Of a stretch of 64,000 bases of DNA, positions 32,283 through 53,909 are shown in pieces. Below the pieces are notes generated by a model, which saw only the letters and a list, made by a program, of their open reading frames with translations, had not been told where the DNA came from and ran no database searches. This DNA is from Pseudomonadota bacterium (GTDB lineage: Bacteria; Pseudomonadota; Alphaproteobacteria; Rhizobiales; CBDHHC01). The stretch covers positions 7,097 to 71,096 of the forward strand of contig JBCCCO010000004.1 in assembly GCA_039033475.1 (NCBI GenBank), in the 5' to 3' direction. The first letter of the stretch is position 1; each line of letters starts with the position of its first letter. A program made the translations under genes and the position numbers.

Positions 32283-32327
32283 GATAACATTTTGCATTCG
32301 TATTAAGGTTCATTATCGAAACAGGCC

Positions 32328-32434
32328 CTACAGCATGTCAATTTCGGCGACACCTCATCTGGCAAGCTGTAGTTTTTTAAAAACGAGCAATTTTACAACC
32401 TGAATTGAATTCAATTCAGGTTGAATCGCTCTAG
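32328..32434. repeat. Copy A of a ~106-bp intergenic repeat (two hairpin modules plus a T6A5 tract)
   Basis: CTACAGCATGTCAATTTCGGCGACACCTCATCTGGCAAGCTGTAGTTTTTTAAAAACGAGCAATTTTACAACCTGAATTGAATTCAATTCAGGTTGAATCGCTCTA. The reverse complement of 60828..60933 matches it with 5 mismatches. Confidence 0.9.
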
Positions 32435-32506
32435 GGTCTGTTAAAATAGTGTATGCGATTATGCTCTTGGCATCTTTATATTTAATACTATAAAAGTAAT
32501 GTAAAT

Positions 32507-33046: not shown

Positions 33047-33087
33047 AGAACCAATTTGAGTTTCGACACTTTCCTTATGGTAAAAAT

Positions 33088-34580: not shown

Positions 34581-37500
34581 ATGGCTTACGATATCGATAC
34601 CTCATACACTCTTGATCCTAGTTTTTTAAAGGGCTCTTCGGCAACAGAATTTCAAGATACAATCAGTGATGAAAGCCTGTTTCTCGATGCTCTGCGTCAA
34701 ACATTTGGCGATGGCATCAGTGAGACAAAAGCAGAAGGTATCCGACAGAAATTGATGGATTGGTTAAAAGGTAACGATGCTGATGCGTTGCCTGAGATGG
34801 TTTTTGTTAAAGAGAGTGCTTTGCCTCAAGGTGTATATGCTGGGTATTTTGCGGGCAATCAACAAGATCCAACAGCTAAATTCTTTATAAGCGAAGCGTT
34901 AATGGATGGGGTCGAAGGGGATATTGAATTAACCGATGTGCTTATTGAAGAGATCGGTCATTATCTTGACGCCGAACTCAATGATGTCGATACCAAGGGT
35001 GATGAAGGCGCGAAGTGGCGTGCCGTTGTAACAAACGATGACAATGCCCTTGCAAATTTAAATCCGGATGAAATTGATACAGTTTCTATTGATTACAAAG
35101 GCAAAACTTACGAAATAGAAGCCTTTAGCGATAAAGCTGTTTTTGATACTTTAATCGGCGATAAAACAAAGCAATCTGGCTTGGTATTAAATAAAGATAT
35201 CTCATTGAGCGCAGATAAGTATCTAGCAGTAGATGATATAGGTAGATCTGACCCTGAAGGAAGGGTCATTCTGACTGCTGTTAAAATGAATGACAAATTC
35301 AGTTTGGTCATATTGAATCGGCACACCCAACAATTTTTTAATATTGATTTATCCGTTTCAATTTCAGATCCAGGTGATAGTAGCATCTCGAAATTATCTG
35401 ACATTTTAATATTAGATTCTAACGGCGCTCTATCTGTCAGGGATGGATATCACTTAGATTTTAAGGAAGGCGGCAAAGTAACCGTCTATAACAATACTTC
35501 TGGCGCTGCTATTTGGAAAAATTATACTCACACAACCAAGGGGCTTTTTGCAAACTATAGCAGTGTTACAGGCACGACTATTGATAGTTCAAGCATTCTT
35601 GAGAAGACACAAAAACTACAGAATGTGCATAATGACCTCACCGTTTTGTTTGATACAGATTCTGAAAAATATGAAGTTTATGTCTTTAATACTTTGGAGA
35701 ATACTGGAGCTTTTGTTGATACATCTTCCGCCCAAGACTTTTTAGCAGTCCATGAAGATGGCTCATTGGTTATGCTAGCTGACTATCAGTTGGAGCTGAC
35801 CCAAATTGGGGATATTATCATTACTGATAAAAATGATGGATCAAGAGTTTGGATGTATGACAGAAGTGCAAATGAGATCCACCATAATTATAGTGATGAT
35901 ACCACGTATGATATTCTTGTTAATGGCGGCACTGATACACGTCCAGGATATACTCCTGCCATTCCTTACATGCAGCCCATTCGGGAGTTCGTTTCAACAT
36001 TAGATACATTTAACGCCTTGTTTGGAGTACCGGATGTTAAGTCTAATCTACATTATGGAGATGTTCTTGACCACACCCAAGTCATAAAAAATGGTAATCT
36101 GGTTTTTGGCGCTGTTCAGCATTTGGGAAGTTATAATACTTCTGATGATACCGCTCGATATGACCTCGTCGTATATAATGAAGCCACAGGTGGAATCCAG
36201 ATTATTAATGAAAACGACAGTCCATTTGGTGAGTTTATTACTTTTGATTCACAAACAGGTAAATTATCTGTCACAGAAGAACATTATGCCTTAACACTTG
36301 ATGGTACAAACCCAGATAGCCCACTGTCTATCGACAACTTAACATTGCAATCCTTCTTTGGTAACAAACAGCTTCTTACAATAGATAGCACCTCTAGCGC
36401 TAAAGACACTTTGGAGGGGGGAGAGTCCCTAGACAACGATCATTACATGAAAATCGCTGGGAGCACCCCAGATGACGGTAATCTATATTTTGGTTTGGTT
36501 CTTGGTGAGTGGGTTGTATTTAATGATAAGACCAATCAATTTGTATCTGTTGATTTTCATACGTATGATACGCATGGAGACAAAACAGATGAACTTGTGG
36601 ACGGCATTACCATAGATAACGGCGCCTTGATAGTGGGCTCTGATTATCGCTTAGAGTTTGAAGAAGGAGGCGCCTTAAAACTAGAGCAAAAAAGCAGCAA
36701 CACTAACAATTACAATGAAACGTGGTCATTTCAAACACAGCAAAAAACTTTTTTCAGTGACTATCAAGTTGTTGACTCTCTAGACCCATCTATACTCCAC
36801 AAAAATATGACACTTTCTGGAGCGGATAAGCAAATGCTAAGGGCAGAGGGACAAGATGCCGCTGGTAATGCTCAAAGTGCAATACTTACCACTGTATATA
36901 ATACAAATTCTGGTACATACGAAGTTTATGTTTTAAACGAGCAAACCCAGACAGGCACTTTTATCGACTTATCTCTAGCAGTACATGCCGGATATCTAGA
37001 GATTGATAGTGATGGCCTTATAACGATGGACAGTAAGTATGGTTTGACACTGCACCAAGACGGCAGGGTTGAAATCACCAATGATCATCCGTTTTGGAGC
37101 TTTGATCCAAGCACTCAAGTTATTACAACGTATGATTATGTCCTTAACAATAACTTTGACACCCCAAATTCCTTGGACCCTGTTCTAGGTGATATACCAT
37201 ACAGCCCACATTTTCCGCCCATTAGAGGTCTAGCTTCTACTGCAGATATTCTAAAGTTATTTACAGAAGGGCGCAACGCACACTCACCTAAATCTGATTA
37301 CTTGCGCCATGGGGAAACGCTCAGCAGCGCAGAATACATGCGTGATGGCAATATTTATCTGGCCGCAATTGATGTAAGTGACAGCAGGTCAAGTAGCTCT
37401 TATGAGCTTATCATGTACAATGCAGATACTGGGGAAAGCGACACTGTTGATGTAGCGCAATATCCGGAACTGAACTTCGACAGAGCTCATGGCACTCTCA

Positions 37501-40500
37501 CCCTTAACGAAGAAAGACGTGCCTTGAGATTGGATGAAAACGCATCTCAAAAGAAATTGTATGCAACAGGTTATCAGGTAGACGGTACAGTGCCGGATGA
37601 CGGCTTGTTCTTTTTTGGAAGTAAAAAAACAACTATAGAACAAGCTGAAGAGCAAGGTATCGACTTTAAGGTTGCATCTGGTGAGTTCGTTAACAGATAT
37701 TTCATTGATAGCAAATTTAATGACGGCGATGGATTTACCTCTGAATTTGTGATGGTTGCGAATCCAGATGGGCATGAAGAACATGACAAAAGCGTATCCT
37801 TTGCGTCTCTTAAAATCAATGGGAAAGATAGCTTTATTATCCAGAATGATACAACAAATGAATTTGTTGTGGTAGATTTTGCAGGATCTGAAGGCCTGAT
37901 ATTTACAGATACAGATGGAGATGGAGGTAACGACGCAATATCAGTTCAGGATGGTTACCGTTTGGTTTTTGAAACCGGTGGTGCTCTGGTTGTGCAAAAA
38001 GATGACGGTAACGGCAATTTTGAAACCAAATGGTCATTTGAGCTTAATGATTTCGAAGCGCTTATGGACAACCGTAGCACCCATAATTCGAGTGGAGCGT
38101 TTGGCGTTCTTGCCTCCGAAGACACACTATCCCAATCAGAAAAGCTGCTTGGGTATATTGGAAGTACATCAAATATTGCAGAAGCTGCTGTTTTCTTCAA
38201 TACTGAAGTCAATGCTAACCTATTATATGTATTTGATTATGACGCACATTCCGGAAACTTCGTGGATTTATCAAGTGCTACTGACTATGTCACAATTTCG
38301 GATTCTGGAAATATGACTATGGAGTCCGGCTATTCGCTGGAGCTGACAAATGAAGGCGATGTTAATATTAAGGATGCATCCGATGCTGTAGTTTGGTCAT
38401 ATGATAATGAAAGCAAAACAATTTGGGGGGGAACTTCAGGGGGAACCGATGGGGCCCCAGTTGATAATCCTTATACTTTCTACGAGGCAGATGAAACCCC
38501 ACCAATAAGAGGCCTATTCTCTCCGTCAGATACAATGGATTTTCTATTTGGTGCTGAGCCCAAAGTGCATGAGCCGGTTGCAAATGCTTTGGCTTATGGC
38601 GAAACATTAGAGGCAGGCACAGTCTTAAAAGATGAAGATGTTGTCGTTGGCTCAATGTTATATACAGATGAGGAGGGCAACCAAAAATACATCCTCGGGA
38701 TGTATGATGAAAATGGACAATTCAACCTGCTTGATCCAACGTCCGACTTTTATGGCGGGAATTTGCTGTTTGATGAAACAACGGGCGCTCTGTCTATCGC
38801 CAATGAAGGGTATGTGCTTAGAATAGATGCAGATAATGATTTTATTTATGTGACGAGTGATGTGGTCAATCACGCTCTGAATGGTGATACGCTTGAAGAG
38901 TGGCAGGAAGATGCCCTCATTGAAAGCACTACAGCAGTGTGGGAAGCAATGCTGACCAGCGCCGGCGGGGTTCTACCAAAATGGACCCAAAAACAACTCA
39001 TGACGTTCGTCTATCATGCAACCATGCTAGGTCAAGATGCAACGACAGAGTATACTTGGGACCAGTTCTTTAAACATAATGAAGCTCTTTTTAATGACCC
39101 GAGCATTATAAATAATATAAGTGCCCCAGATTTTGTTAAGCTTGTTCAAGATGGGACTATTTTACTAGATGTATTCGGCATTTCCTCTACTGACACGCAA
39201 AAAATAGAACAGTTCCAAAATGTTATTAATATCTCCTCTCTTTTGTCTTATTCCTTGAATGAAAGCCACAAAAGAGCGTTTTCAGCGCAAAGTGGCACAG
39301 ACATTATAGATAGCGCGGGGAACAAGTTAGCCACCCAAGACATGGTGCTCCCATATAACAGAGATGGAACGCTAGGCATAAATGAGGCACAGGTCAATTT
39401 TGTCAATGCTTTGGGCTACGATATCGATTTTCTCAATCAACCGACGGATTATCTGGCCAATCGGGTGGAAATAGGTGATACATTTACCCGTACAGATGGC
39501 GTTGAAATTACTGTTGAAAACGAAGATCAGGCTAAGACTATCAATACTCGAAACTTTGAGTATTTTCTGACAGCACTGGAAAGTGGTGACATTCTAGATG
39601 GTAAGGTCAAGCAGGATAGCCTAAGAAAACACTCTTTTACTCAAACTCTTATGTCAACAGCACGAGAAGCAAACGATATAATGGTTGCTGAAAACAATCC
39701 TTACTGGAATCGCGTGGACCTTGACAGTGCAGATGTTGATACAGACGCAAGATTTAAAGTATCTTACACAGTAGTAGGTCAAGATGGTGCTGATGACAAA
39801 GTCATAAAAGACAAATATGTTACGCAAGAGCAAATGGACTTTTTGGAAGAAAGGCAAGGGAAGAAAGAAATTACAGGTCTCACAGATAGAGAAAATGCTC
39901 ATATTACAGATCGTGTTTTGTTGCAAACGATAAAAGCTATAGAGACCCTCGCAGATTATGATGCACTGCGCACACAACAGCTTGATCCAGAAACAGGCAA
40001 AATTAAGGGAGCTCCTGCCATTGTCATGTGGGCCCAAGCATTCTCTAATCATCATAAAACTCTGGTAGAGGGCACTGATGACGTTGGCAGTGCTTTAACT
40101 GAGAAGGACTTTGATTACACAAAATGGAATGCAAAAAAAGCGAAGTATGTCACCCATAATCATCACGGCACTCATTTTGAAAGACTGTTTGGAGGGCATA
40201 TTGATGCTGGATTTGCACAGAGTGATATTACAGGAAAGGCTTTCACCAACAGGGAAGCAATAGATTATTTCTTTAATGAAATGGGCATTGAAGACCCTGG
40301 TATGCTCTCTACTTCAGTAACCACTTCTTTTTCGGACATGCTGTTACTTGCTATTAATGAAGTGCCGCCGGTTACAGATATGGTTACGTCAAGTATGTAT
40401 TTTGGTGCAAATTATCCTTTACAACTAGATTGGGACACATTGAATACTAATGTGCCAAATGGACATTTTTGGTGGCATCAGGACAGTATGGGGGGCACTC

Positions 40501-46500: not shown

Positions 46501-49500
46501 CTGCCCATCAAAACATTCCACAACCAGGTGACAATTCGTTTCTATTACGTCAGATCTTCGGCAATAAGTTTACTGCTAAGAGTACCGAATTTAATGGCCT
46601 TGTATGGGTTGATAGAGGCGTAATGACAAACCCAGACACAGGGGAGGAAGTTTATAGAATTGAATTGGGGTATCGAAATACAGATCTTGCATTTCTTGCA
46701 GGCGTGGGAAGAGAGTATTTACCAAAATCAATCGCAAATTTTTTTCGCTTAGATGAAAATCCATTCAACCAAAACCAAGATAATAAATCGCCGCCAGCAA
46801 AAACATTTGCAGGCAATGTATTTAATCCAATACTGTTTGATGTCACCCATATAACAGCTAGGATTGACATAGATCTTAAAACTGGCACGCCGGTTGTCGT
46901 GGGCGGGGGAGCGACCTTCGGCTCATACGTAGGTAACTCAGCTTTTCAAGCAGTTGCGGGCACAGAAAATAGACCTGCAGCTGGAGAAAAAACTCTCTTG
47001 ACGGGGACGCTTAATGGATTTTCGCAAAGCACTAAACCATTGTCAGCGGCAGGTTTGGCGGCGGTGACACTTTATGCTATTGGATCACGTGCTGTAAGGC
47101 CGTCCGTAACTGGTATAATGCAAGCTCGAGGATTGAGACCAGACAATACCAAAGATATTCAAGGTCAAAACGTCCCGGGCAGTTTCGTACACCATTCAGT
47201 TCGTGAAGTTCTTAGTTTTGGAGGAAGGCAGGCTGCGTGGATGCTCCCTATGTATTTGACGGGGGGTAAAATGGACATTGGTTCACTTGCATTCACTGGG
47301 GGAATTGTTCCAAGTGCTATAGGAGCTGCGAAATATGCCTCGACTGGTACCCTATCTCAGTCCCTAGGAGCATTGGGGCGAAATCTTGCTGGTGGAGTTC
47401 TCAATTTTCCTCCAGTAGCGACTGCGGCAACACCAGTCTATGATCTTGGTGCATGGGTTAGTGATGTGTTCAATGAGTTTACGGTACTAAATGTAGATTT
47501 TGGAATGGGAACCGGAGTTGCACCAGATCAACAAGGTGCGCAAGAAGAGCCACGGGAAGTTGAATTGATTAGAACTTATAGCCGTGACAGCTTTTTTAGC
47601 GATACAACGGATGGAACATATGTCCCACCTTGGCAGGCAGAGGATGAAGAGCCAGAGGATATGTTTGCAGCTTTAGGAGGTCAAGCACCGTTAAACCCGC
47701 TAGGCGCGGGCGCGCGGGTTCTTTCAGCCATACAAGCTGCAGATGAAAATGGGGATATTGGGGATATCCGCATGGAAGTTGAAGATCCAGAAACGGGAGA
47801 GAGTAGGTTTATCCAATTCATTAAACGGCATGGAAACATATTTGATAAATCGCAATGGTTTGCTTTTGCGAATATAGGTGAACCGAAAACAATATATGAA
47901 CCAGAAGGGTTTAACTTTTTTAATGATGTTAAGGGCGATAATGACGGTAGATTTTTAACAAGTCTATCGATGGAGGATTCAAATGAGTTTCTTCAATTCA
48001 AAGCCAGACTTGGTGATTTGGAACGCGAACTTATTAATCCCGATACCGGAGAAAAAGGCCTGCACTTAGACAACAACCGTTGGTATGGCTTGGTTGATGA
48101 TCCTATGACAGCGCTTAAAACCCTCGAGACTTATAAATTAGATATTGATGGTGATGGTAAAAAAGAGCTTGTTTTTGGAGACCTAGATGGTGATGGCCAG
48201 GATGGCCACATATCAAATCCACTTGCGGCAGTCGAGAGTTTAGAGAATAGCCAATATTTAGCGGATAATTATCCAGATATGGATAAGGATTTCGACGGTG
48301 ATGGCACAGTTGGGACAGCGACAAACCTCAAACCAGAAATGTTCCCTCCAACTGGTGCCGATTCTACCACAAAAATTGAGAGATTAGTTCCTTCTCTGGA
48401 GAGCGTATTTGATAACAGAAAAATCGAACCTGGCACCTTTAATTTGATTGAAAATGAAATACCCAATGCCTTGGAGCCAAGTGATAAAATCCGTGCCACA
48501 ACAAGCGCAAACAATACTTTGGAGATGGGGGCTGTCTTCTTTCAGAACTCTTGGAAGTTTATTGCAAAGGATGATACAGGTAAAATCTGGGATTTAACTT
48601 CGGACCTTTTATCAGAGCCAAATTTACATTTTGACACTGAGACAGGCATTCTAATGTCTGATCCTACAGCAGGTCCTCTAACGTCTCTTGCACTTGCGTA
48701 TAATAGCGCAAATGACAGTTTGGAATTAGAGGTTTTGGGCACCACCGTAAATTTGTTCACCTTTGATGATACTACTGCAATAGGCAAAGGGGCGTTATTT
48801 GACTTCACGTCCGATACAGCGCACACTCCTGACCCGCAAATTCTTATGGCTGGTGAAAAGCTGCGGCCAGGTGAATATTTACAGGCGAAAGATGGTGGTG
48901 CCTATTCGCTGCACTCCGCCCGTGTTGCTGGAGAATACCGCCTTTTGATCATTGAGAGTGATACGCAAAGAATCTGGGGTGATGTTACTGATAGTGCATA
49001 CTACTTTGACAAACGTACCGGAATACTCGCCGTTCCCAGTTACTCAAATCGTGAGTATACGCTTTCCCAAGATGGTGAGCTATTTCTGCATAAAACTGGT
49101 GAAGTTCCTGACGGCGGCTTTGCGAGATATGAAGAACCCTATGAAGGCACAGCTCAGACACAAAAGGCCATGGTGCAATGGCAGAACCTAAATCAAACCT
49201 ATGACGAGGATATCCCGTCTTTAGAAGCAAAACAGGTATTTGATCTGCTGTATGGCTTTGAACTTGACAGCTATGCAATTATTACAGAAGGCACATGGCA
49301 GACATTGTTTAGTTCTAATTTTGACGAAACCGGTCAATTCATTGGAAGTGAGACTGGTGAGCTGGATTTCAGCATGTTTGGTGATGACCGCAAAGCTCAG
49401 GTTAAAGATGCTGTAGAGGTCGGCGCCATTATGTTCCATTCTATGCAAAAGCATGTGGAAGGCACGGACGAAGCTGATAACGCCCTTTTCCTACCCGATG

Positions 49501-52500
49501 ATCCTCTTGTGGCACAACAAAAGTTTTTGGCCGCCCTGCGAACAGACATGGGTTTTAGCACCACAGAAACCAGCACGCACGATCATGAGTTTTACTTATC
49601 AGGTATTTTGGATCCAAGTGATACTGGAAGCACCCCTCTAACCGATGACGTAATGAATAACAAAGTTTTGCTTGATAGCATTAAAAATACATTCTCTCAA
49701 GTCTCTGAAGAAATGGCTGGTTGGACAGAAAACCCATACGATGGCCCCACGATTGCCGATATTAATGCAGATACCTTGGCTGATGACTATGCGCTCTATG
49801 ACGTGAAATATACCAAAAATGGTGTTGAATATAAGACTGTTGCGACAGAAACAGAAAAGCAAAAACTAATATATTTAGAGAGCGAAGGGGAAGTGACTTT
49901 CAATCCTTCCACAGATTCTAACCAAATCACTGATCCAGCTCGGCTTAAAGTGTTTCACATGATGAAAGGCATCGCTGATTATGAGGCCAACCGTGAAGCA
50001 AATTATGAAGATGGTAATCAGAGTGGCGGAGTATCAGCGGCAACACTGATCACGCAAGATTTTGCAGCGCGGCATTCGTTTTATAATGATGAAAAGACAG
50101 CAGCAGGAGGTGGTGCCACAACAAGCATCTTGTCAGAAACCTTTGATGGACGCAGCTCTGGTATGTACGATAAAGAAGCGGGGGACCTTGCCTATCAGAC
50201 TTTAGGTGTTGATGGAAGCAACTTAGCATCTCTATTCTCCGCCCTTAAAGGAGCGACAGATGTGAGCGGCTCCACCGCGTGGATAGCTAACGATGCCGAA
50301 CTCAAACCTCTGATGTTAGATATCGCCTCAGCCCCGCAGCTTGCCGCTATAAGCGGTAAAGTGCAAGACAGTGCTGGTATTGCCGTATCTGACGAAGAGC
50401 TTTCGCTATTCCTCAAAGAAAAATGGGCAGATCTACAAGATAATCCTTCTGATCCAAGCACATGGACCGATGTTGGTGTTTGGATGAGTTTAGATATGGC
50501 CTATCAGTTAGCAGATGAATATGGCAGCACAGAAAACGCTTTTGAAGCATTGTTGGCCACAGCACCCGGGGCGTCTATGACGCACGTCGGTGAACTCATA
50601 GCAGAGGGCACATATGGCATTGCTACCCCCTACGAATACGACTTCGATATTTTTCAAGATAATACTGATGTCGAAGCAGGAACATATACAACAGTTTTCA
50701 AAGATGACCCAGAAGACAATGTCACCTGGTCTAAATCTGTTGGTCTCACCGCCGGTGAACATGAAGATGCAATTGAGCTATCTGAAAACATTATGGAGAA
50801 GCTTGACACTGAAGGACTAGCCAGCACTGCGGACTATGTTGGTGAGCGCATGAAGGCACTGGAAAATCCTGCTGTTGTGATCCAGGCGTTAGAGCTGCTT
50901 TCCCCTGATATTCAGGGAGATATCCAACTCCAGCGTGATAAGTCTGTGAGTGCTGGAGTTGCTTATCAGAGCACTGAATGGAATAACGCTGTGAACGATT
51001 CGTCAATAACAGCGCAAGTTGATTTTATCAATGTCTTAGCTCCAGATTATGCTGAGAAATTCTTATTTGAAGTGTCCAAAGCTCAAGGGCTGGACCACGC
51101 AAAAGACCTTCTCGGAAATGGTGATAAAGTCGCTGCAGAAAAAACAATTCTCGCTGGAATGGCCGGCGTCTTGCAGCGCAATAAAGACTATGGCCTGCCC
51201 TACAGCGCACCAACAGCACTGAGCGAAGAAGACAGCTTTATCATGGATATTATGCTCAGCTTAAGTGACACTGATCCTGCTAAAGCACAAGAAATAATGA
51301 TAGACGTGGGACTAGCCTCACCGAAGATTGCGGCAGTACTGACTTACATGATCAGTAAATTTGAAGGTGATGGCGAGAGCTTTGATCGCGCTGCAGCTTT
51401 ATTGCAACCAGATGACAGTACCGATGCGACTGCCTCTGAAGTTATCGGAGAAATAGCCCTCAACCTTACAAAGATGGAAGAGGAAAAAAGCCCAGACGGA
51501 CGCCGTTTGATGGAAGGCGGAGAGACAAATAATCAAACCTTTGCAGAGTCGTTTCTTAACGCTGTGTGGGCCAGGTTAGGTCTGAATGGCCCCAATGACG
51601 TGCAAACTATATCCCTTAAAGTTTTGTTATATGCGTCATCTACGGCATCTTTCCTCACACAGGCGAGAAGTAGGGCTGATGTTAACCTATTGTTGGCATC
51701 AAAGCTTTCAACGGATTTTGCCACTAAAATTTTAGCCTCTTGGGATGATGCAGTTGATCTTCATAAAAATGGTTATACAACAGCTGCTGGAACTGCGGTT
51801 GATATTAGTGATCCCAAAAAGATTGCACAAGGAATTGTTGAAGATTTTAATGCAGCAACCTCGGAGACCGAGCAGGATGATGTTATTGCAGGTGTCGCAG
51901 AGTTATTAATGAGAACTAAGAAGTCCGACAAAGTTGGCGCTGTTCTCGGTCACATTAGTGCCCGTGATGCTGAAAACGATACTAAGATTGCTTTTAAGAT
52001 TGTAACCAAAATATCGCAGTTTGCAGATTCTGCTAAAAAGGAAAAAACGTCAGGTATATTGGCACACATAGCAAGTGATGTTATGGATGCTATTATTCTT
52101 AACTTGAATGATCTAATTCCCGCTGATCGTACAACTGTTGCAGACGCTATAGTCCAGTCTACCACCAATTCACTCGCTGTTGGTGCAACTCGTACTTTGT
52201 CATCATTAATTCAGGTCTCGGGGATTGGCACTAGCTATTTTATAGAGCTAGTTGATCCTGTAAATACAGATCGATACCCTATAACAACAGCTAACTACGG
52301 GAACATCGTAGCACGTCTGCCTGTAGAAAATCGAAAAACAATTATGACCAGTCTGTATGATAATCTTGTAACACAGGATTTTGCCTTAAGAGCAATGGCT
52401 GCAATGCCTGCAGAGACCTTGGTGCAAATGCTACTATCAATTAAGTTGGATGATCCTTATAAAGCAAAAATGATGCTGAATAAGATGCTCGAATTAGAGT

Positions 52501-53876
52501 TTAATCTGCGCAGAACAGGTATGACTGAGGTGCTAGACCTTTTACATCAACAAGATCCTGATTACCTGTTTGACGCAATATTTATTCTTCCATTTGCAAG
52601 TATATCATTTACTCTGAATTCTGTTTCTGATGAGACCTTCACACAAATCATAAAGGGTTTTCATGTAGATTCCCCTCAAAATGCTGCAATTATATTTAAT
52701 GGGATGCAGAATAAAGCCGTAAGATTTTCTAGACTTTACAGGTTGGATCAGACCTTTGCTCTAATTTTACTTGAAACTCTTTACGCTAAACAAGATGTCA
52801 ACGGGGTCGACGAATTTGCGCTCTTTGTTCAGAGCTTACTTGGTAGCAATGACGATTTGCTGAACTTCAGTGAAATAGTAGAAATACAAGAGGTGTTGCA
52901 TCAAAATGATACAGGTGCTGATTTGGTCTTTTTCTCAAGCTTATTATTATCTTCTACTATGGGACGAGTTAAAAATGCTTCTGAGTATTTTAAGTCATTC
53001 ATTCAAAAGCCGGATATGGCCAAAGAACTTTTTATTGAAGCAAGTTTATCCGACAACAAATCTATGGCTAGTCGTTTTATAGCGAGTGTGCACACCAGTA
53101 CAGACCAGGAAGTCAAAAATCAACTATATACCTTTATGGCTGATTTATATTCACTTAGTCCTAATGTATTTGCGCAAAATCTAACCTTGTTGCTTCCGGA
53201 AATAGGCTCTTCGCCTTCTAAGTACCTGATGTTGTTGCGTACAGCACGAGCTGGTGGGCACAACCTTTTCGATATGTTAAAAAGCTTAGTTGATATGCCA
53301 AACTTTACAATACCTGTAATGGGTAGTCCTCTTACGTTTAACGGCGCGTTTGTGGCTTTTGAAATGTTTGATTTCCTGGGCAAGGAAATATCATCACAAT
53401 TTTATGACACATTAAGTGATGTGCAAAAAAGTAAGATAGATAATTATATTGATAATCCTGATACTTATTTCGATCATGATGATACCGGTATTTTAGGTTA
53501 TGATAGCAAATTGACTGCAGGTCTATCGCTGGCAGATAATGATATACTTTTCTCGCCAGAGCTTCAGGCTTCATTTGGGTTTGTTGAGAGCTATAGATCA
53601 AATGGCTATGACTTAGTTATTCTTAAGCCGGGCCCACAAAAGTTTGATATTAAGGATATCAATAATAATACAATTAAAGTTGCACAGGGATCAGAATTTA
53701 AAATTGCTTTTAATGGAAGACTTGTTGTAGTTGAGCCTGATGGTAAGATCCATTTCATCACAAAAGCCTTAGAACCTGGAACGTTTAATCCTGAAGATCT
53801 GCGAGTTGTCCTAACAGAAGTGGGCAATTTGATATTTTTTGATGACAGCACAAACAGAGTGTTGGAAATTATGTAA
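34581..53876 (+). CDS. Giant 6,431-aa acidic protein of unknown function (mosaic of lectin-like beta modules, hydrophobic Gly/Ala-rich segments and helical repeats)
   Basis: A single frame stays open for 19,296 nt. ATG is preceded by AGGAAATACA. Every ORF in the other five frames inside it is under 135 aa. Residue composition and repeat structure look protein-like throughout. Confidence 0.95.
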   Translation: MAYDIDTSYTLDPSFLKGSSATEFQDTISDESLFLDALRQTFGDGISETKAEGIRQKLMDWLKGNDADALPEMVFVKESALPQGVYAGYFAGNQQDPTAKFFISEALMDGVEGDIELTDVLIEEIGHYLDAELNDVDTKGDEGAKWRAVVTNDDNALANLNPDEIDTVSIDYKGKTYEIEAFSDKAVFDTLIGDKTKQSGLVLNKDISLSADKYLAVDDIGRSDPEGRVILTAVKMNDKFSLVILNRHTQQFFNIDLSVSISDPGDSSISKLSDILILDSNGALSVRDGYHLDFKEGGKVTVYNNTSGAAIWKNYTHTTKGLFANYSSVTGTTIDSSSILEKTQKLQNVHNDLTVLFDTDSEKYEVYVFNTLENTGAFVDTSSAQDFLAVHEDGSLVMLADYQLELTQIGDIIITDKNDGSRVWMYDRSANEIHHNYSDDTTYDILVNGGTDTRPGYTPAIPYMQPIREFVSTLDTFNALFGVPDVKSNLHYGDVLDHTQVIKNGNLVFGAVQHLGSYNTSDDTARYDLVVYNEATGGIQIINENDSPFGEFITFDSQTGKLSVTEEHYALTLDGTNPDSPLSIDNLTLQSFFGNKQLLTIDSTSSAKDTLEGGESLDNDHYMKIAGSTPDDGNLYFGLVLGEWVVFNDKTNQFVSVDFHTYDTHGDKTDELVDGITIDNGALIVGSDYRLEFEEGGALKLEQKSSNTNNYNETWSFQTQQKTFFSDYQVVDSLDPSILHKNMTLSGADKQMLRAEGQDAAGNAQSAILTTVYNTNSGTYEVYVLNEQTQTGTFIDLSLAVHAGYLEIDSDGLITMDSKYGLTLHQDGRVEITNDHPFWSFDPSTQVITTYDYVLNNNFDTPNSLDPVLGDIPYSPHFPPIRGLASTADILKLFTEGRNAHSPKSDYLRHGETLSSAEYMRDGNIYLAAIDVSDSRSSSSYELIMYNADTGESDTVDVAQYPELNFDRAHGTLTLNEERRALRLDENASQKKLYATGYQVDGTVPDDGLFFFGSKKTTIEQAEEQGIDFKVASGEFVNRYFIDSKFNDGDGFTSEFVMVANPDGHEEHDKSVSFASLKINGKDSFIIQNDTTNEFVVVDFAGSEGLIFTDTDGDGGNDAISVQDGYRLVFETGGALVVQKDDGNGNFETKWSFELNDFEALMDNRSTHNSSGAFGVLASEDTLSQSEKLLGYIGSTSNIAEAAVFFNTEVNANLLYVFDYDAHSGNFVDLSSATDYVTISDSGNMTMESGYSLELTNEGDVNIKDASDAVVWSYDNESKTIWGGTSGGTDGAPVDNPYTFYEADETPPIRGLFSPSDTMDFLFGAEPKVHEPVANALAYGETLEAGTVLKDEDVVVGSMLYTDEEGNQKYILGMYDENGQFNLLDPTSDFYGGNLLFDETTGALSIANEGYVLRIDADNDFIYVTSDVVNHALNGDTLEEWQEDALIESTTAVWEAMLTSAGGVLPKWTQKQLMTFVYHATMLGQDATTEYTWDQFFKHNEALFNDPSIINNISAPDFVKLVQDGTILLDVFGISSTDTQKIEQFQNVINISSLLSYSLNESHKRAFSAQSGTDIIDSAGNKLATQDMVLPYNRDGTLGINEAQVNFVNALGYDIDFLNQPTDYLANRVEIGDTFTRTDGVEITVENEDQAKTINTRNFEYFLTALESGDILDGKVKQDSLRKHSFTQTLMSTAREANDIMVAENNPYWNRVDLDSADVDTDARFKVSYTVVGQDGADDKVIKDKYVTQEQMDFLEERQGKKEITGLTDRENAHITDRVLLQTIKAIETLADYDALRTQQLDPETGKIKGAPAIVMWAQAFSNHHKTLVEGTDDVGSALTEKDFDYTKWNAKKAKYVTHNHHGTHFERLFGGHIDAGFAQSDITGKAFTNREAIDYFFNEMGIEDPGMLSTSVTTSFSDMLLLAINEVPPVTDMVTSSMYFGANYPLQLDWDTLNTNVPNGHFWWHQDSMGGTLYNKDGDYLEDYEKAQGVRDIIKGWIGDRAAYANRDLDLVEYLSHKSISHQRYVETKALWTEIEIEILIDFGAAIIGAGVGWAVGALIGAVAAALTTEVAAEGASDVASQGVVRGTAYGGGEVEMSNLAERTALVGQEQLEGSFEVEGGFDEVPLDDIDDAAQPLNGASPAAREAATKSAVGYALNILSPATVAGTEAVAYGTDIATNINDIFAPDADLDYVTAYGYELGNDNYTGTDFEIYKAVDGEPLEEIKSYDGAQYSSGTTSLRDNVSAVNKAIPVLDKYAEAVGDDPANPDFTSVIDTLLNEAKDAEGNVDPEMLQLIISYMPTYYEFDDAGNTISKNPKVDIVATLYQYDIANTVGQEKFDAVISSPATADNGPVLHALSLPSTQYSFLEQTYNANGGADIADILNDPSVTSDDIVNILTYYIDNKSEYTGYSTGDPVDYPEGQPTPWIIDSLVALNEVNEDKVHDVFAILANGDDAAIRVGALVSNEIQYLTTPSDPNAPDNSELTLSMLHGASFSPKNTDASGNSMGMASMYSIIAELDTLIPPPEVQERRRTQGGLVTAAGVGFALAALSQFILGAGALSYAPSTPAGIRPRTAEGDVAGLLTRNRAEQGGISLDNGDNYDDDVEALDATQEQKDRVRAEMADPAARSEYSSDPNLGIDSFKINGLKTNAAKIIDYADNHIYTGSDVPPRWTSAHKTYQDIFLGIDDTPLDNPDQDVYTQKVGLTLNEVANQGRADIVAKIFIDVIRDFSNNRDSVVEWMGYMSPANVGDTLAIYDTLEKPAGWTDNNQSLGLISTFMDKNPDQGAISASAYYQFADISAQNFLTFLESFTDTTGQDSSVTLSANDKIRKILTSGTPEDAAYFIKAFGIDAADSRGSIIFLAIEDAGQQSMILNSMSYEDAATLSGYLDTTEDGVADDKFLETTAGLDPSVFADMTLTKIDQSDTTFMQNLNKVDSLVLAEAVNTVDNDSKFRILSAMLKNSAGDDGVKDSVPTLEAINSLNPVDSADLFALWGQMNGTEAAELFIDNAYVLASKYLENSGIDVTDPTNIAPEDQAEAYDAAIDYSVMTLETMKEGDAPEFFDHIHDYSSKMSHTYMDAMVKDDTGFALYTFGGLADASAPDALSNTQSAFLLSANSETAGKLIENMYTVDDQGAIDYTKANTALTQLATQDASLTASIVDDMDPAKALKIWRNGATDGTFAGSFFKTVWSSGSLNDLGKVSLWYAMNSDERQEIYSDGTASTPFDTKYFANTAIADKTSNVAAIAPENLAPFGEEADGKTANAQVLTVGTFLEGALSKLETITDPNILTIQSKFSYQDLLDAFPDSDITPDDYVAYIEGTFLPTVEAAMEKMGRPANEIDAALDVVRKAATLATSEPSLLDHNLSFTIDLDDPMAYDDASSSWVDDGITETKAFHYVNYVSSPDEATTAPAAGAEPTFYQSTPVLSSEEIIRHSNTIKSGGGLPQIVGASGLDAPMAVLTDADRLELAELPDNPETRATVVGGANELELFDPASHFHVTLDGTISNTTTQSLTDAATDQSVKETTVFTLGDNFVWSSFADDAAATQSFETDLKAQVIEYLTPLGFTESEIENFFWALLNAAQNSPDQKISMVVRQGKVLAQDWYDSDGMIKSDKAHLVQYQNGTEQTSLISFIAFSDDFDGSKVGWDGQNADDINVNETQQVNTALYNGTFFTGAQLQGIRDDFPGDASDGSNSFVFTASDIDTLPAYVTNNNTANVEWIDSIAENSSRSEAIQNIASSLGSYANIFLQALKTNTLQGAYGAALSFMDGDISGIMQTTLDLAGIGDGSDGDLREHDIYDVASDDTAWTYFLLTAFAKDKDQLDTAFKNNDTLTVADIGTTFEVSELFSHSTMEQLRDGLLQVKQDKIAAGGRRAQVVEARELLDGFVNATANITDLNATDSPTGAPTTLPPTQLPTAAPSANIPKGGRGPSVDIAKILSKTIPTTGMEWFDLARKAIGVGSTLMAVGLPSAHQNIPQPGDNSFLLRQIFGNKFTAKSTEFNGLVWVDRGVMTNPDTGEEVYRIELGYRNTDLAFLAGVGREYLPKSIANFFRLDENPFNQNQDNKSPPAKTFAGNVFNPILFDVTHITARIDIDLKTGTPVVVGGGATFGSYVGNSAFQAVAGTENRPAAGEKTLLTGTLNGFSQSTKPLSAAGLAAVTLYAIGSRAVRPSVTGIMQARGLRPDNTKDIQGQNVPGSFVHHSVREVLSFGGRQAAWMLPMYLTGGKMDIGSLAFTGGIVPSAIGAAKYASTGTLSQSLGALGRNLAGGVLNFPPVATAATPVYDLGAWVSDVFNEFTVLNVDFGMGTGVAPDQQGAQEEPREVELIRTYSRDSFFSDTTDGTYVPPWQAEDEEPEDMFAALGGQAPLNPLGAGARVLSAIQAADENGDIGDIRMEVEDPETGESRFIQFIKRHGNIFDKSQWFAFANIGEPKTIYEPEGFNFFNDVKGDNDGRFLTSLSMEDSNEFLQFKARLGDLERELINPDTGEKGLHLDNNRWYGLVDDPMTALKTLETYKLDIDGDGKKELVFGDLDGDGQDGHISNPLAAVESLENSQYLADNYPDMDKDFDGDGTVGTATNLKPEMFPPTGADSTTKIERLVPSLESVFDNRKIEPGTFNLIENEIPNALEPSDKIRATTSANNTLEMGAVFFQNSWKFIAKDDTGKIWDLTSDLLSEPNLHFDTETGILMSDPTAGPLTSLALAYNSANDSLELEVLGTTVNLFTFDDTTAIGKGALFDFTSDTAHTPDPQILMAGEKLRPGEYLQAKDGGAYSLHSARVAGEYRLLIIESDTQRIWGDVTDSAYYFDKRTGILAVPSYSNREYTLSQDGELFLHKTGEVPDGGFARYEEPYEGTAQTQKAMVQWQNLNQTYDEDIPSLEAKQVFDLLYGFELDSYAIITEGTWQTLFSSNFDETGQFIGSETGELDFSMFGDDRKAQVKDAVEVGAIMFHSMQKHVEGTDEADNALFLPDDPLVAQQKFLAALRTDMGFSTTETSTHDHEFYLSGILDPSDTGSTPLTDDVMNNKVLLDSIKNTFSQVSEEMAGWTENPYDGPTIADINADTLADDYALYDVKYTKNGVEYKTVATETEKQKLIYLESEGEVTFNPSTDSNQITDPARLKVFHMMKGIADYEANREANYEDGNQSGGVSAATLITQDFAARHSFYNDEKTAAGGGATTSILSETFDGRSSGMYDKEAGDLAYQTLGVDGSNLASLFSALKGATDVSGSTAWIANDAELKPLMLDIASAPQLAAISGKVQDSAGIAVSDEELSLFLKEKWADLQDNPSDPSTWTDVGVWMSLDMAYQLADEYGSTENAFEALLATAPGASMTHVGELIAEGTYGIATPYEYDFDIFQDNTDVEAGTYTTVFKDDPEDNVTWSKSVGLTAGEHEDAIELSENIMEKLDTEGLASTADYVGERMKALENPAVVIQALELLSPDIQGDIQLQRDKSVSAGVAYQSTEWNNAVNDSSITAQVDFINVLAPDYAEKFLFEVSKAQGLDHAKDLLGNGDKVAAEKTILAGMAGVLQRNKDYGLPYSAPTALSEEDSFIMDIMLSLSDTDPAKAQEIMIDVGLASPKIAAVLTYMISKFEGDGESFDRAAALLQPDDSTDATASEVIGEIALNLTKMEEEKSPDGRRLMEGGETNNQTFAESFLNAVWARLGLNGPNDVQTISLKVLLYASSTASFLTQARSRADVNLLLASKLSTDFATKILASWDDAVDLHKNGYTTAAGTAVDISDPKKIAQGIVEDFNAATSETEQDDVIAGVAELLMRTKKSDKVGAVLGHISARDAENDTKIAFKIVTKISQFADSAKKEKTSGILAHIASDVMDAIILNLNDLIPADRTTVADAIVQSTTNSLAVGATRTLSSLIQVSGIGTSYFIELVDPVNTDRYPITTANYGNIVARLPVENRKTIMTSLYDNLVTQDFALRAMAAMPAETLVQMLLSIKLDDPYKAKMMLNKMLELEFNLRRTGMTEVLDLLHQQDPDYLFDAIFILPFASISFTLNSVSDETFTQIIKGFHVDSPQNAAIIFNGMQNKAVRFSRLYRLDQTFALILLETLYAKQDVNGVDEFALFVQSLLGSNDDLLNFSEIVEIQEVLHQNDTGADLVFFSSLLLSSTMGRVKNASEYFKSFIQKPDMAKELFIEASLSDNKSMASRFIASVHTSTDQEVKNQLYTFMADLYSLSPNVFAQNLTLLLPEIGSSPSKYLMLLRTARAGGHNLFDMLKSLVDMPNFTIPVMGSPLTFNGAFVAFEMFDFLGKEISSQFYDTLSDVQKSKIDNYIDNPDTYFDHDDTGILGYDSKLTAGLSLADNDILFSPELQASFGFVESYRSNGYDLVILKPGPQKFDIKDINNNTIKVAQGSEFKIAFNGRLVVVEPDGKIHFITKALEPGTFNPEDLRVVLTEVGNLIFFDDSTNRVLEIM
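35178..38855 (+). repeat. Threefold ~400-440-aa protein-level super-repeat within the giant ORF (about aa 200-1425)
   Basis: Anchors recur with a 402-441 aa period. These are FSLVILNRHTQQFFNIDL / GEWVVFNDKTNQFVSVDF / DSFIIQNDTTNEFVVVDF; YEVYVFNTLENTGAFVD / YEVYVLNEQTQTGTFID / LLYVFDYDAHSGNFVD; QPIREFVSTLDTFNALFG / PPIRGLASTADILKLFTEG / PPIRGLFSPSDTMDFLFGA; and YDLVVYNEATGG / YELIMYNADTGE / YILGMYDENGQ. Confidence 0.8.
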
Positions 53877-53909
53877 ACGTTTGAACTTATGTTACTTTAG
53901 CACAAGATT

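What the first reader, a model, noticed from the sequence alone, without database searches (positions are those of the whole stretch)
34581..53876. 19.3-kb ORF for a 6,431-aa acidic, apparently cysteine-free giant protein that fits no known giant-protein class
The frame is open for 19,296 nt. Reading the translation I saw no Cys in 6,431 residues, a strong D/E/T/S/N/G bias, and no N-terminal signal peptide or lipobox. I also saw no arrays of GGxGxDxUx nonapeptides, no field of short Ig/cadherin-like tandem repeats, and no autotransporter, TPS or LPXTG terminus. Those features define the usual bacterial giants (RTX/MARTX toxins, LapA/BapA-type adhesins, Sca/TAA autotransporters), and no NRPS/PKS motifs are evident either. 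Its parts are a degenerate zincin-like N-terminus, a 3x ~415-aa super-repeat of lectin-like beta modules, a ~600-aa unique region, widely spaced Gly/Ala-rich hydrophobic segments, two long helical-repeat regions, a DxDxDG cluster, further lectin-like modules and a lectin-like C-terminus. Absence of Cys plus acidity is typical of proteins exported unfolded, for example by T1SS, and T1SS parts occur at the window edge. Lectin-like ends flanking membrane-insertable segments would suit a surface-binding or pore-forming exoprotein, but this is inference only.
Basis: partly seen in the sequence, partly recalled or inferred. Interest (0 to 1): 0.85.

Follow-up and report, generated by a model that had tools for sequence, protein, structure and literature searches.

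The report
Orphan giant cysteine-free secreted-type protein
A real 19.3-kb gene in an uncultured low-GC alphaproteobacterium encodes a 700-kDa acidic protein without a single cysteine; about 97% of it matches nothing known, but its first ~180 residues mark it as a divergent member of an unnamed class of giant exported bacterial proteins.

Summary
Window 34581..53876 (+) is one ORF of 6,431 codons with 0 Cys, pI 4.23 and 700.5 kDa. It has no signal peptide, RTX, Ig/cadherin, autotransporter, TPS or LPXTG feature. The gene is native: codon usage matches housekeeping genes (r = 0.85), and a second assembly tiles it at 100% identity.

"Fits no known class" is only partly right. Residues ~25-200 are homologous to the extreme N-termini of large cyanobacterial and proteobacterial exoproteins (RTX, Calx-beta, cadherin, VCBS, YD-repeat, colicin-E3-tipped). 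The relatives checked are acidic and nearly Cys-free. Two proteobacterial members lie inside TolC/HlyD-type export clusters. No Pfam or NCBIfam model covers this head domain.

The rest (~6,200 aa) had no detectable homologue, though only the last 1,200 aa were searched exhaustively. It contains 12 copies of a beta module, an ancient ~450-aa internal duplication, two TM-like helices, a neutral Gly/Ala-rich region and a DxDxDG cluster. The module model is confident (pLDDT 85) but matches no PDB or BFVD fold. "Lectin-like", "zincin-like" and "helical repeats" remain unproven.

Most likely it is a TolC/T1SS-type exported binding and membrane-associating giant exoprotein. This is a new variant of a known kind.

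The parts
34581..53876 (+). Giant ORF: 6,431 aa, 0 Cys, pI 4.23, 700.5 kDa. It is NCBI MEM7619077.1, a hypothetical protein of a Pseudomonadota MAG.
   Evidence: Codon usage (RSCU) correlates at r = 0.85 with housekeeping genes, and GC1/2/3 are the same. Logan contigs of run SRR22824269 tile it: the retrieved parts are 100% identical, and the contig lengths imply a 30-nt overlap. There are no DNA repeats of 24 nt or more apart from one imperfect 24-nt pair (79% identity).
34581..35135 (+). N-terminal head domain (aa ~25-185) with the invariant motif EE-x-G-H..D...N..D..GDEG (E123, E124, G126, H127, D130, N134, D137, G140-G143).
   Evidence: tblastn against plasmids gave E 5e-7 to 9e-4 and 26-32% identity to the N-termini of four large cyanobacterial proteins, all of which carry RTX repeats. 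The family is in 21 plasmid records. No Pfam, NCBIfam or PDB match covers the domain itself.
35088..38900 (+). Three super-repeats (aa 170-590, 591-1000, 1001-1440). Each has three beta modules, giving nine modules in all.
   Evidence: Self-BLAST. Alignment A1 shows 30-32% identity. The AF2 model of repeat 2 is all-beta with 31 strands and pLDDT 58.7. Its Foldseek hits are all beta-propellers with E as low as 4e-5 but TM of only ~0.1.
37218..37589 (+). Reference beta module (aa 880-1003), modelled using the 12 paralogous copies as its alignment.
   Evidence: Alignment A3. AF2 gave pLDDT 85.3 and pTM 0.80, with 1 helix and 9 strands. No Foldseek match in PDB (best E 0.41) or in BFVD. The profile against PDB gave only marginal hits (E 0.04-1.6), enriched for bulb-type lectins and propeller proteins.
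38565..40058 (+). Copy 1 of an ancient internal duplication (aa 1329-1826): a beta module plus a ~400-aa non-repetitive domain.
   Evidence: BLASTP of aa 1329-1826 against aa 4747-5167 gave a colinear alignment with 22% identity and E 2e-6.
40710..40790 (+). TM-like segment 1 (aa 2044-2070, FGAAIIGAGVGWAVGALIGAVAAALTT).
   Evidence: Kyte-Doolittle 19-residue maximum of 1.99; 27 consecutive uncharged residues.
42183..42296 (+). TM-like segment 2 (aa 2535-2572), flanked by RRR on one side and RPR on the other.
   Evidence: Kyte-Doolittle maximum of 1.94; 38 consecutive uncharged residues.
46278..47570 (+). A Pro/Thr linker (aa 3905-3935) followed by the only charge-neutral, Gly/Ala-rich, moderately hydrophobic region (aa ~3940-4330).
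   Evidence: Net charge is -4 to 0 per 200 aa here, against -13 to -32 over most of the protein. The uncharged stretches are 3960-3983 and 4101-4128.
48135..48320 (+). DxDxDG cluster (aa 4521, 4534, 4568): candidate Ca2+-binding loops.
   Evidence: Regex search. There are 5 overlapping matches in the protein against 0.42 expected, and none of 500 shuffles reached 4.
48483..49130 (+). Two further beta modules (aa 4635-4740 and 4725-4850).
   Evidence: The module-C HMM matches aa 4745-4844 at iE 1.7e-32. Both are in alignment A3.
48819..50081 (+). Copy 2 of the internal duplication (aa 4747-5167).
50718..53450 (+). C-terminal region rich in helix-forming residues (aa ~5380-6290). No repeat period was detected.
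   Evidence: Composition and lag analysis with z <= 3.3. Exhaustive phmmer of aa 5232-6431 against 1.84 billion representative proteins returned only the protein itself.
53478..53873 (+). C-terminal beta module (aa 6300-6431). The protein ends ...DDSTNRVLEIM.
   Evidence: Alignment A3. No NCBIfam T1SS C-terminal target domain was found.
1..309 (-). Context: the N-terminal 103 aa of a PrtD-type T1SS ABC exporter. The gene runs off the left edge of the window.
   Evidence: Translation. Matches TIGR01842 at E 4.2e-29.
359..964 (-). Context: an HlyC-family RTX-toxin acyltransferase directly upstream of the ABC gene, with no toxin gene between them.
   Evidence: Pfam PF02794, E 8.5e-21.
62584..64000 (-). 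Context: the C-terminal 459 aa of a 585-aa RTX protein. The part inside the window has 0 Cys and pI 4.05.
27663..34224 (.). Context: five ORFs between bamB and the giant gene with no family assignment (208 aa on the - strand; 885, 216, 179 and 378 aa on the + strand).
   Evidence: Pfam and NCBIfam gave nothing significant. The 885-aa ORF has no relative in JGI metagenome contigs. None resembles the TolC/HlyD cluster genes of relatives.

Best explanation
The ORF is a genuine, native gene for a giant exoprotein. It is an extremely divergent member of an unnamed class of Sec-independent, acidic, almost Cys-free giant proteins. The class is defined by a ~150-aa N-terminal head domain with the motif LLEEIGHxxDxxLNxxDxxGDEG.

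Proposed mechanism:
1. The protein is made without a signal peptide and kept unfolded. It has no disulfides and a high negative charge.
2. It is exported in one step through a TolC-dependent tripartite (type I-like) system. A PrtD-type ABC exporter gene lies on the same contig.
3. Outside the cell it folds, helped by Ca2+ at the DxDxDG loops.
4. Its 12 beta-meander modules bind a surface ligand. Nine sit near the N-terminus, two at aa 4635-4850 and one at the very C-terminus.
5. The two central hydrophobic helices and the neutral Gly/Ala-rich region associate with a membrane, either the producer's outer membrane or a target cell's.

Shown: that the gene is real, its composition, the head-domain homology, the module family, the internal duplication and the hydrophobic segments. 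Inferred: the export route, the Ca2+ dependence, ligand binding and membrane insertion.
For: **Gene reality.** One stop in 6,432 codons against 235-742 in the other frames. RSCU correlates at r = 0.85 with housekeeping genes, against 0.01 and 0.37 for the giant's own sequence read in the two shifted frames. A second assembly agrees.

**Composition.** 0 Cys (chance ~1e-28) and pI 4.23. This profile is described for T1SS substrates (PMC3034196).

**Head domain.**
- It is homologous to the extreme N-termini of four cyanobacterial giants, all with 8-40 RTX repeat matches.
- The wider family is fused to Calx-beta, cadherin, VCBS, YD-repeat and colicin-E3 toxin regions.
- The six relatives checked have pI 4.05-4.22 and 0-4 Cys.
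- The Eleftheria terrae and Azospirillum thermophilum members sit in clusters ordered TolC, adaptor, giant, HlyD, HlyD.
- The Eleftheria protein has no GGxGxD either, so RTX-less members exist.

**Same contig.** A PrtD-type ABC exporter, an HlyC acyltransferase and a 585-aa RTX protein.

**Other features.** No signal peptide. The DxDxDG cluster is non-random. The beta module model is confident.
Against: - There are no RTX nonapeptides and no recognisable T1SS C-terminal target domain. The last 130 aa look like a folded beta module rather than a separate signal.
- The T1SS ABC gene is 34 kb away. No TolC or HlyD gene flanks the giant, and its five upstream neighbours are unrelated to the export genes of relatives.
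- Two strong TM-like helices would equally suit an inner-membrane anchor.
- Head-domain homology covers only ~3% of the protein at 26-32% identity.
- There is no expression or localisation data, and the gene is known from one sample only.
Confidence: 0.5

Rival explanations
1. The protein is an inner-membrane-anchored giant envelope protein. The two hydrophobic helices (aa 2044-2070 and 2535-2572) are true transmembrane segments in the producer. The protein stays cell-bound, with large domains in the cytoplasm and/or periplasm, and acts as a structural or scaffold component.
For: There are two clear TM-like segments with Kyte-Doolittle maxima of 1.9-2.0, and the second is flanked by basic residues. 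No export genes are adjacent. Giant proteins with TM helices are described in other phyla (bioRxiv 10.1101/2023.11.21.568195).
Against: Total absence of Cys together with pI 4.2 and DxDxDG loops is typical of extracellular proteins, not cytoplasmic ones. The head domain is otherwise found on RTX-type exoproteins. No signal peptide or N-terminal anchor is present to start Sec/YidC insertion of a 2,000-aa N-terminal region. RTX pore-forming toxins also carry internal hydrophobic helices, a point that rests on established knowledge and was not tested here.
Confidence: 0.2
2. The protein is an effector or toxin delivered to another cell by a route other than T1SS, such as a T4SS, T6SS or contact-dependent system encoded elsewhere in the genome. 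The head domain would serve as a processing or trafficking module, as in polymorphic toxins.
For: Head-domain relatives include a YD-repeat protein and a 3,212-aa protein annotated as a colicin E3/pyocin S6 cytotoxin. The hydrophobic helices could insert into a target membrane.
Against: No toxin domain was recognised anywhere. No immunity-like ORF follows the gene: the next 394 nt hold only short spurious ORFs, followed by a DipM/NlpD-like housekeeping gene. No T4SS or T6SS genes lie in the 64 kb. Proteobacterial relatives sit in TolC/HlyD clusters.
Confidence: 0.15
3. The ORF is an assembly artefact, or a non-functional or decaying gene.
For: The source is a single MAG from a single sequencing run (SRR22824269). 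There is no close homologue, so conservation cannot be measured. The join at window 42747-42776 is bridged by only a 30-nt overlap in the Logan assembly.
Against: A 19.3-kb open frame in 41% GC DNA cannot arise or persist by chance. Codon usage and GC1/2/3 match the host. There are no long DNA repeats that could mislead an assembler. Paralogous modules diverged to ~30% identity while the frame stayed open and Cys-free. The retrieved parts of the two Logan contigs agree with the window at 100%.
Confidence: 0.02

Closest known systems
Large cyanobacterial and proteobacterial exoproteins that share the N-terminal 'EEIGH...GDEG' head domain. Examples: Gloeothece verrucosa WP_013334310.1 (calcium-binding protein), Acaryochloris marina WP_012167975.1 (Ig-like), Nostoc WP_256872037.1 (Calx-beta), Eleftheria terrae WP_301260765.1 (VCBS).
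   Same: They share a homologous head domain at the extreme N-terminus and lack a signal peptide. They are large (1,744-4,599 aa), have pI ~4.1-4.2 and have 0-4 Cys. The Eleftheria member also lacks RTX repeats.
   Different: Their bodies are built from recognised modules (RTX, Calx-beta, cadherin, Big_9, VCBS, PD40). The giant's remaining ~6,200 aa match none of these. No TolC or HlyD genes flank the giant.
Giant T1SS adhesins (LapA, SiiE, MpIBP, BapA; for example the 6,177-aa Tokpelaia protein, PMC5156944).
   Same: Size, acidity, scarcity of Cys, no signal peptide, and a T1SS encoded elsewhere in the genome.
   Different: Those proteins are arrays of ~100-aa Ig-like repeats followed by RTX repeats and a TIGRFAM T1SS C-terminal target domain. 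The giant has none of these.
MARTX and pore-forming RTX toxins (RtxA, HlyA, CyaA).
   Same: Giant or large T1SS substrates with internal hydrophobic or Gly-rich membrane-inserting regions. An HlyC-type acyltransferase gene is present on the contig.
   Different: The giant has no RTX nonapeptides and no Pfam-detectable repeat family; the MARTX A/B repeats were not searched for specifically. With zero Cys, a MARTX-type cysteine protease domain is impossible. No effector domains were recognised.
Bulb-type (GNA/MMBL, beta-prism II) lectins and lectin-like bacteriocins (LlpA, pyocin L1/L2).
   Same: Module size is ~100-120 aa and all-beta. The profile of the 12 modules gives marginal PDB hits to curculin, pyocin L1/L2, daffodil and other bulb lectins at E 0.05-1.6, with near full-length coverage for curculin. 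The only PDB hit of the super-repeat profile is Crocus lectin 3MEZ at E 0.04.
   Different: No Pfam B_lectin hit. No QxDxNxVxY sugar-binding motif. The confident AF2 module does not match any beta-prism II structure by Foldseek. Other marginal hits are propellers such as sialidase, PQQ, Kelch and NHL.

Membership tests
RTX / classical T1SS substrates | Tandem GGxGxDxUx nonapeptide repeats (Pfam HemolysinCabind) | tested here: not met
   0 GGxGxD and no PF00353 hit on any tile.
RTX / classical T1SS substrates | Uncleaved C-terminal secretion signal or T1SS C-terminal target domain | tested here: inconclusive
   No NCBIfam/TIGRFAM T1SS target-domain hit. T1SS signals are poorly conserved, so their absence by HMM is not decisive. 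The C-terminus is ...RVLEIM.
RTX / classical T1SS substrates | Acidic pI, few or no Cys, no N-terminal signal peptide | tested here: met
   pI 4.23 and 0 Cys. The N-terminus is hydrophilic and acidic. This profile is described in PMC3034196.
RTX / classical T1SS substrates | Genetic linkage to ABC, MFP and TolC export genes | tested here: inconclusive
   A PrtD-type ABC fragment lies on the same contig but 34 kb away. No MFP or TolC is in the window, and the rest of the contig was not retrievable.
Head-domain ('EEIGH...GDEG') giant exoproteins (unnamed; no Pfam or NCBIfam model) | Homologous ~150-aa domain at the extreme N-terminus with invariant E-E-x-G-H, D, N, D and GDEG | tested here: met
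   tblastn E 5e-7 to 9e-4. Alignment A4 has 19 invariant columns, including M1. 41% identity over 68 aa to the Eleftheria member.
Head-domain ('EEIGH...GDEG') giant exoproteins (unnamed; no Pfam or NCBIfam model) | Body built of known extracellular repeat modules (RTX, Calx-beta, cadherin, VCBS, Big) | tested here: not met
   Such modules are present in the relatives (annotations) and absent from the giant.
Head-domain ('EEIGH...GDEG') giant exoproteins (unnamed; no Pfam or NCBIfam model) | Flanking TolC/HlyD-type export genes (seen in the two proteobacterial members examined) | tested here: not met
   Eleftheria and Azospirillum loci. The giant's neighbours are unrelated.
Bulb-type lectin (B_lectin / beta-prism II) | Pfam PF01453 match, QxDxNxVxY sites and a beta-prism II fold | tested here: not met
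Zincin metallopeptidase | HExxH (plus a third ligand) and a zincin fold | tested here: inconclusive
   The motif is EEIGH, with the first His replaced by Glu, and this is invariant in the family. There are 0 HExxH. No Pfam, NCBIfam or PDB zincin hit; one relative gave SprT-like at E 0.2 only.
MARTX toxins | Cysteine protease domain and A/B/C Gly-rich repeats | tested here: not met
   Zero Cys excludes a cysteine protease domain. The C-type (RTX) repeats are absent, and no repeat family was detected by Pfam. The A and B repeats were not searched for by motif.
Ig/cadherin-repeat adhesins, autotransporters, TPS exoproteins, LPXTG proteins, NRPS/PKS | Respective Pfam or NCBIfam domains or the sorting motif | tested here: not met
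   No hits on seven overlapping tiles at E <= 1. No LPxTG.

The most novel reading that the evidence does not exclude
The giant may represent a new architectural class of RTX-less, TolC-exported exoprotein. Its 12 beta modules would be a previously undescribed fold: the model is confident yet has no PDB or BFVD match. The protein would combine surface binding with membrane insertion through the central hydrophobic helices.

Independently, its head domain defines a widespread, un-modelled family with an E-E-x-x-H variant of the zincin motif. This family may be the export, retention or self-processing module of many cyanobacterial and proteobacterial giant exoproteins and polymorphic toxins.
Probability: 0.2. 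Interest if true: 0.7.

Novelty: new variant of a known kind. Interest (0 to 1): 0.45.

Why it matters
- **Scale of unknown sequence.** This is a 700-kDa protein of which ~97% has no detectable relative. The last 1,200 aa were compared exhaustively with representatives of ~15 billion proteins.
- **Possible new fold.** It contains a 12-copy beta module that models confidently yet matches no solved or viral fold by Foldseek.
- **A handle on function.** The only link to known proteins is a head domain shared with RTX, Calx-beta, VCBS, YD-repeat and colicin-E3-tipped giants. That domain has no Pfam or NCBIfam model and no literature that I could find. Characterising it (export signal, retention plug or variant metallopeptidase) would annotate a whole class of giant exoproteins.
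- **The limits of T1SS export.** The protein would also be a test case for how RTX-less, 6,000-aa substrates with hydrophobic helices cross the envelope.
- **Caveat.** The evidence comes from one MAG and one sample, without expression data, so the practical impact is moderate for now.

Tried and rejected
1. **Family and sequence searches on the giant.** Pfam and NCBIfam on 7 overlapping tiles gave only noise: PQQ_2 at E 0.003, Collagen_bind at 0.086 and PaREP1 at 0.016. PDB sequence searches of aa 1-5000 and aa 4001-6431 gave nothing at E <= 1.
2. **Word-index homologue searches.** Searches of aa 1-1500, 1430-3330 and 3331-5232 found nothing. Attempts with 6,431 and 5,000 aa failed. This tool also missed the head-domain relatives that tblastn later found, so its negatives are weak.
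3. **Other homologue searches.**
   - Exhaustive phmmer of aa 5232-6431 found only the protein itself.
   - Pattern scans with the super-repeat alignment found nothing in GTDB genomes or JGI metagenomes.
   - The 885-aa neighbour found nothing in JGI metagenomes.
   - tblastn of aa 3001-6000 against plasmids found nothing.
4. **Synteny.** Scanning with BamB showed the nearest genomes are Hyphomicrobiales MAGs at 45-50% identity and 62-66% GC, with no giant ORF downstream of bamB. No positional homologue was found.
6. **Comparisons within the window.** The giant shows no similarity to the 585-aa RTX protein or to any other window ORF.
7. **Periodicity.** Lag analysis found no repeat period in the alpha-rich regions.
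8. **Transcription signals.** Promoter and terminator scans around the gene were uninformative.
9. **Contig edge.** Attempts to reach the contig beyond the left window edge failed.
10. **Literature.** A search for the run accession returned no papers.
11. **Polymorphic-toxin reading.** I rejected it as the primary explanation because there is no toxin domain and no immunity ORF.
Full report

Yes. Window 34581..53876 (+) is one ORF of 6,431 codons ending in a single stop. The frame opens at 34542, and the ATG at 34581 is the first start codon. Over the same stretch the other five frames contain 235-742 stops.

The product has no cysteine, a pI of 4.23 and a mass of 700.5 kDa. Its commonest residues are D, A, L, T, S and G. 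The other 35 ORFs in the window contain 1.0% Cys, so zero in 6,431 residues has a chance of about 1e-28.

The gene looks native:
- Relative synonymous codon usage correlates at r = 0.85 with housekeeping genes of the window. The giant's own sequence read in the two shifted frames gives 0.01 and 0.37.
- GC at the three codon positions is 0.54/0.39/0.36, against 0.53/0.39/0.37 for housekeeping genes.

The protein is NCBI MEM7619077.1, a 'hypothetical protein' of a Pseudomonadota MAG on a 74-kb contig. It is a singleton at 90% identity.

A second assembler supports the sequence. Two Logan contigs from the same run (SRR22824269) tile the ORF:
- One is 100% identical to window 32622-42776.
- The retrieved part of the other is 100% identical to window 45612-57434, and its full length of 14,688 nt would reach window 42747.
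- The implied overlap is 30 nt.

No DNA repeat of 24 nt or more exists inside the gene, apart from one imperfect 24-nt pair. An assembly artefact is therefore very unlikely. The only weak point is the 30-nt join.

**2.

- There is no signal peptide. The first 30 residues carry 1 positive and 6 negative charges.
- There are 0 GGxGxD, 0 HExxH and 0 LPxTG motifs.
- No Pfam or NCBIfam family rose above noise on seven overlapping 1,200-aa tiles.
- No PDB sequence relative appeared at E <= 1.

**3. Anatomy**

*(a) Beta modules.* Residues ~170-1440 are three super-repeats of 410-440 aa at 30-32% identity. Each holds three beta modules. With two more at aa 4635-4850 and one at the very C-terminus (aa 6300-6431), there are 12 alignable copies sharing a D...G...L core.

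Using the paralogues as the alignment, AlphaFold2 models one module (aa 880-1003) with pLDDT 85.3 and pTM 0.80, as one helix plus nine strands. A whole super-repeat models poorly (pLDDT 58.7) but is all-beta with 31 strands.

Fold evidence is mixed:
- Foldseek finds no significant match for the confident module in PDB (best E 0.41) or BFVD.
- The super-repeat model's hits, and the weak hits of the module, are nearly all beta-propellers.
- Sequence profiles give only marginal PDB hits. These are bulb-type lectins (curculin, pyocin L1/L2, daffodil lectin, Crocus lectin; E 0.04-1.6) and propeller proteins (sialidase, PQQ kinases, NHL).
- The mannose-binding motif QxDxNxVxY never occurs.

My reading is that these are repeats of four-stranded antiparallel meanders. 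They are compatible with a propeller or a prism, but their fold is unresolved and they are not demonstrably lectins.

*(b) Internal duplication.* Residues 1329-1826 align colinearly with 4747-5167 at 22% identity and E 2e-6. A 'module plus ~400-aa domain' cassette was duplicated long ago.

*(c) Hydrophobic segments.* Two strongly hydrophobic, Gly/Ala-rich, uncharged segments lie at aa 2044-2070 and 2535-2572. After a Pro/Thr linker, aa ~3940-4330 form the only charge-neutral part of the protein.

*(d) DxDxDG cluster.* Three DxDxDG loops cluster at aa 4521-4573. There are five overlapping matches in the protein against 0.42 expected, and none of 500 shuffles reached four.

*(e) C-terminal region.* Residues ~5380-6290 are rich in helix-forming residues, but I found no repeat period.

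**4. The one link to known proteins**

tblastn against plasmid records matched residues ~25-200 to the extreme N-termini of four large cyanobacterial proteins. These come from Gloeothece (1,744 aa), Acaryochloris (1,859 aa), Geminocystis (3,566 aa) and Nostoc (4,599 aa), at E 5e-7 to 9e-4 and 26-32% identity.

The alignment starts at Met1 in all five proteins. It has 19 invariant columns, including E-E-x-G-H, D, N, D and G-D-E-G. All four relatives carry many RTX repeats, and some also carry Calx-beta, cadherin or Big_9 domains. No Pfam, NCBIfam or PDB entry covers the head domain itself.

Searching with the Acaryochloris domain finds 21 plasmid records. The annotated products include:
- a YD-repeat protein;
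- a bluetail surface protein;
- a 3,212-aa colicin E3/pyocin S6 cytotoxin;
- VCBS and cadherin-like proteins from Eleftheria terrae and Azospirillum thermophilum.

The six relatives checked have pI 4.05-4.22 and 0-4 Cys. The Eleftheria protein has 3,718 aa, 0 Cys, pI 4.09 and no GGxGxD. It shares 41% identity with the giant over the motif region.

In Eleftheria and Azospirillum the giant gene sits in a conserved cluster ordered TolC, adaptor, giant, HlyD-family, HlyD-family. The giant therefore belongs, by its head domain and its composition, to an unnamed class of TolC/HlyD-linked exoproteins. RTX-less members of that class already exist.

**5. Homology elsewhere: negative, with a caveat**

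- Exhaustive phmmer of aa 5232-6431 against 1.84 billion representatives returned only the protein itself.
- Word-index searches of the other 5,232 aa found nothing. That tool also missed the head-domain relatives, so these negatives are weak.
- Pattern scans of GTDB genomes and JGI metagenomes with the repeat alignment found nothing.
- tblastn of aa 3001-6000 against plasmids found nothing.

**6. Context**

The organism is a deep-branching, low-GC (41%) alphaproteobacterium. BamB's best relatives are Hyphomicrobiales MAGs at 45-50% identity and 62-66% GC. None has a giant ORF after bamB.

Between bamB and a DipM/NlpD-like gene lie the giant and five upstream ORFs with no family assignment. 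The giant is separated from its neighbours by intergenic regions of 356 and 394 nt. No immunity-like ORF follows it.

The window's left edge carries an HlyC-family acyltransferase. It is followed directly by the N-terminus of a PrtD-type T1SS ABC exporter (TIGR01842, E 4e-29), with no toxin gene between them. The right edge carries a 585-aa RTX protein.

**7. Mechanism**

The best-supported reading (confidence ~0.5) has five steps:
1. Synthesis without a signal peptide.
2. One-step export of the unfolded, disulfide-free, highly acidic chain through a TolC-dependent type I-like system.
3. Extracellular folding, assisted by Ca2+ at the DxDxDG loops.
4. Ligand binding by the beta modules near both ends.
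5. Membrane association through the central helices and the neutral Gly/Ala-rich region.

The literature describes T1SS substrates as acidic (pI ~4.0-4.6). It also describes the T1SS-secreted RTX lipases and S-layer RTX proteins as lacking cysteines (PMC3034196).

What is shown: gene reality, composition, head-domain homology, the module family, the duplication and the hydrophobic segments. What is inferred: the route, Ca2+ dependence, binding and membrane insertion.

Rivals:
- An inner-membrane-anchored envelope giant (0.2).
- A toxin or effector delivered by another system (0.15).
- An artefact or pseudogene (0.02).

**8. Comparison and novelty**

It works most like a giant T1SS exoprotein. 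However, it fails the defining tests for RTX proteins, Ig-repeat adhesins (for example the 6,177-aa Tokpelaia protein, PMC5156944), MARTX toxins, bulb lectins and canonical zincins. It passes the test for the head-domain class.

I therefore rate it a new variant of a known kind, not categorically new.

Interest is moderate at 0.45. A 6,200-aa stretch of unknown sequence with a confidently modelled, unmatched beta module is unusual, and the un-modelled head-domain family is a useful lead. Against that, the evidence is one MAG from one sample, with no expression data and no demonstrated function.

Noticed in passing
window 1-964 (- strand): An HlyC-family RTX-toxin acyltransferase gene (359-964) is followed directly by a PrtD-type T1SS ABC exporter gene (309..1, cut by the window edge). 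There is no toxin gene between them, so the acyltransferase's substrate is encoded elsewhere. It could be the 585-aa RTX protein or, speculatively, the giant.
   Followed up: partly
window 62584-64000 (- strand); L001 1689-3446: A 585-aa RTX protein has its nonapeptide repeats in the N-terminal third. Its 459-aa C-terminal part has 0 Cys and pI 4.05, with no family match. It shows no similarity to the giant.
   Followed up: partly
window 27663-34224: Five consecutive ORFs between bamB and the giant have no Pfam or NCBIfam family. They include an 885-aa protein with hydrophobic N-terminal segments and a 378-aa protein with a signal-peptide-like N-terminus. der (engA), which usually follows bamB, is absent here.
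   Followed up: partly
L015-L019, L021, L022 (plasmid loci of Gloeothece, Nostoc, Geminocystis, Acaryochloris, Azospirillum, Eleftheria): A ~150-aa N-terminal domain (LLEEIGHxxDxxLNxVDxxGDEGAIFSALV) heads many giant exoproteins and at least one colicin-E3-tipped toxin, yet it has no Pfam or NCBIfam model. In two Proteobacteria the gene lies in a cluster ordered TolC, adaptor, giant, HlyD, HlyD. The ~700-aa 'HlyD family' proteins in that cluster lack Walker A and LSGGQ motifs.
   Followed up: partly
tblastn against plasmids then found head-domain homologues at E down to 5e-7. Negatives from the word-index tool with long queries should be treated as weak.
   Followed up: yes
window 5865-7238 (+): A 457-aa ORF has a signal-peptide-like start and a His-rich N-terminal region. 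Its only match is a weak one to the MetA-pathway outer-membrane channel family (PF13557, E 0.036).
   Followed up: no
whole window compared with L002-L008: The window is 41% GC, whereas the nearest relatives by BamB (Hyphomicrobiales MAGs, 45-50% identity) are 62-66% GC. The lineage is deep-branching and strongly AT-shifted, which partly explains the orphan status of its fast-evolving genes.
   Followed up: partly
window 42747-42776: Both Logan contigs that cover the giant end here, and their lengths imply a 30-nt overlap. No repeat explains the break. It may reflect a coverage dip or strain variation at this point.
   Followed up: no
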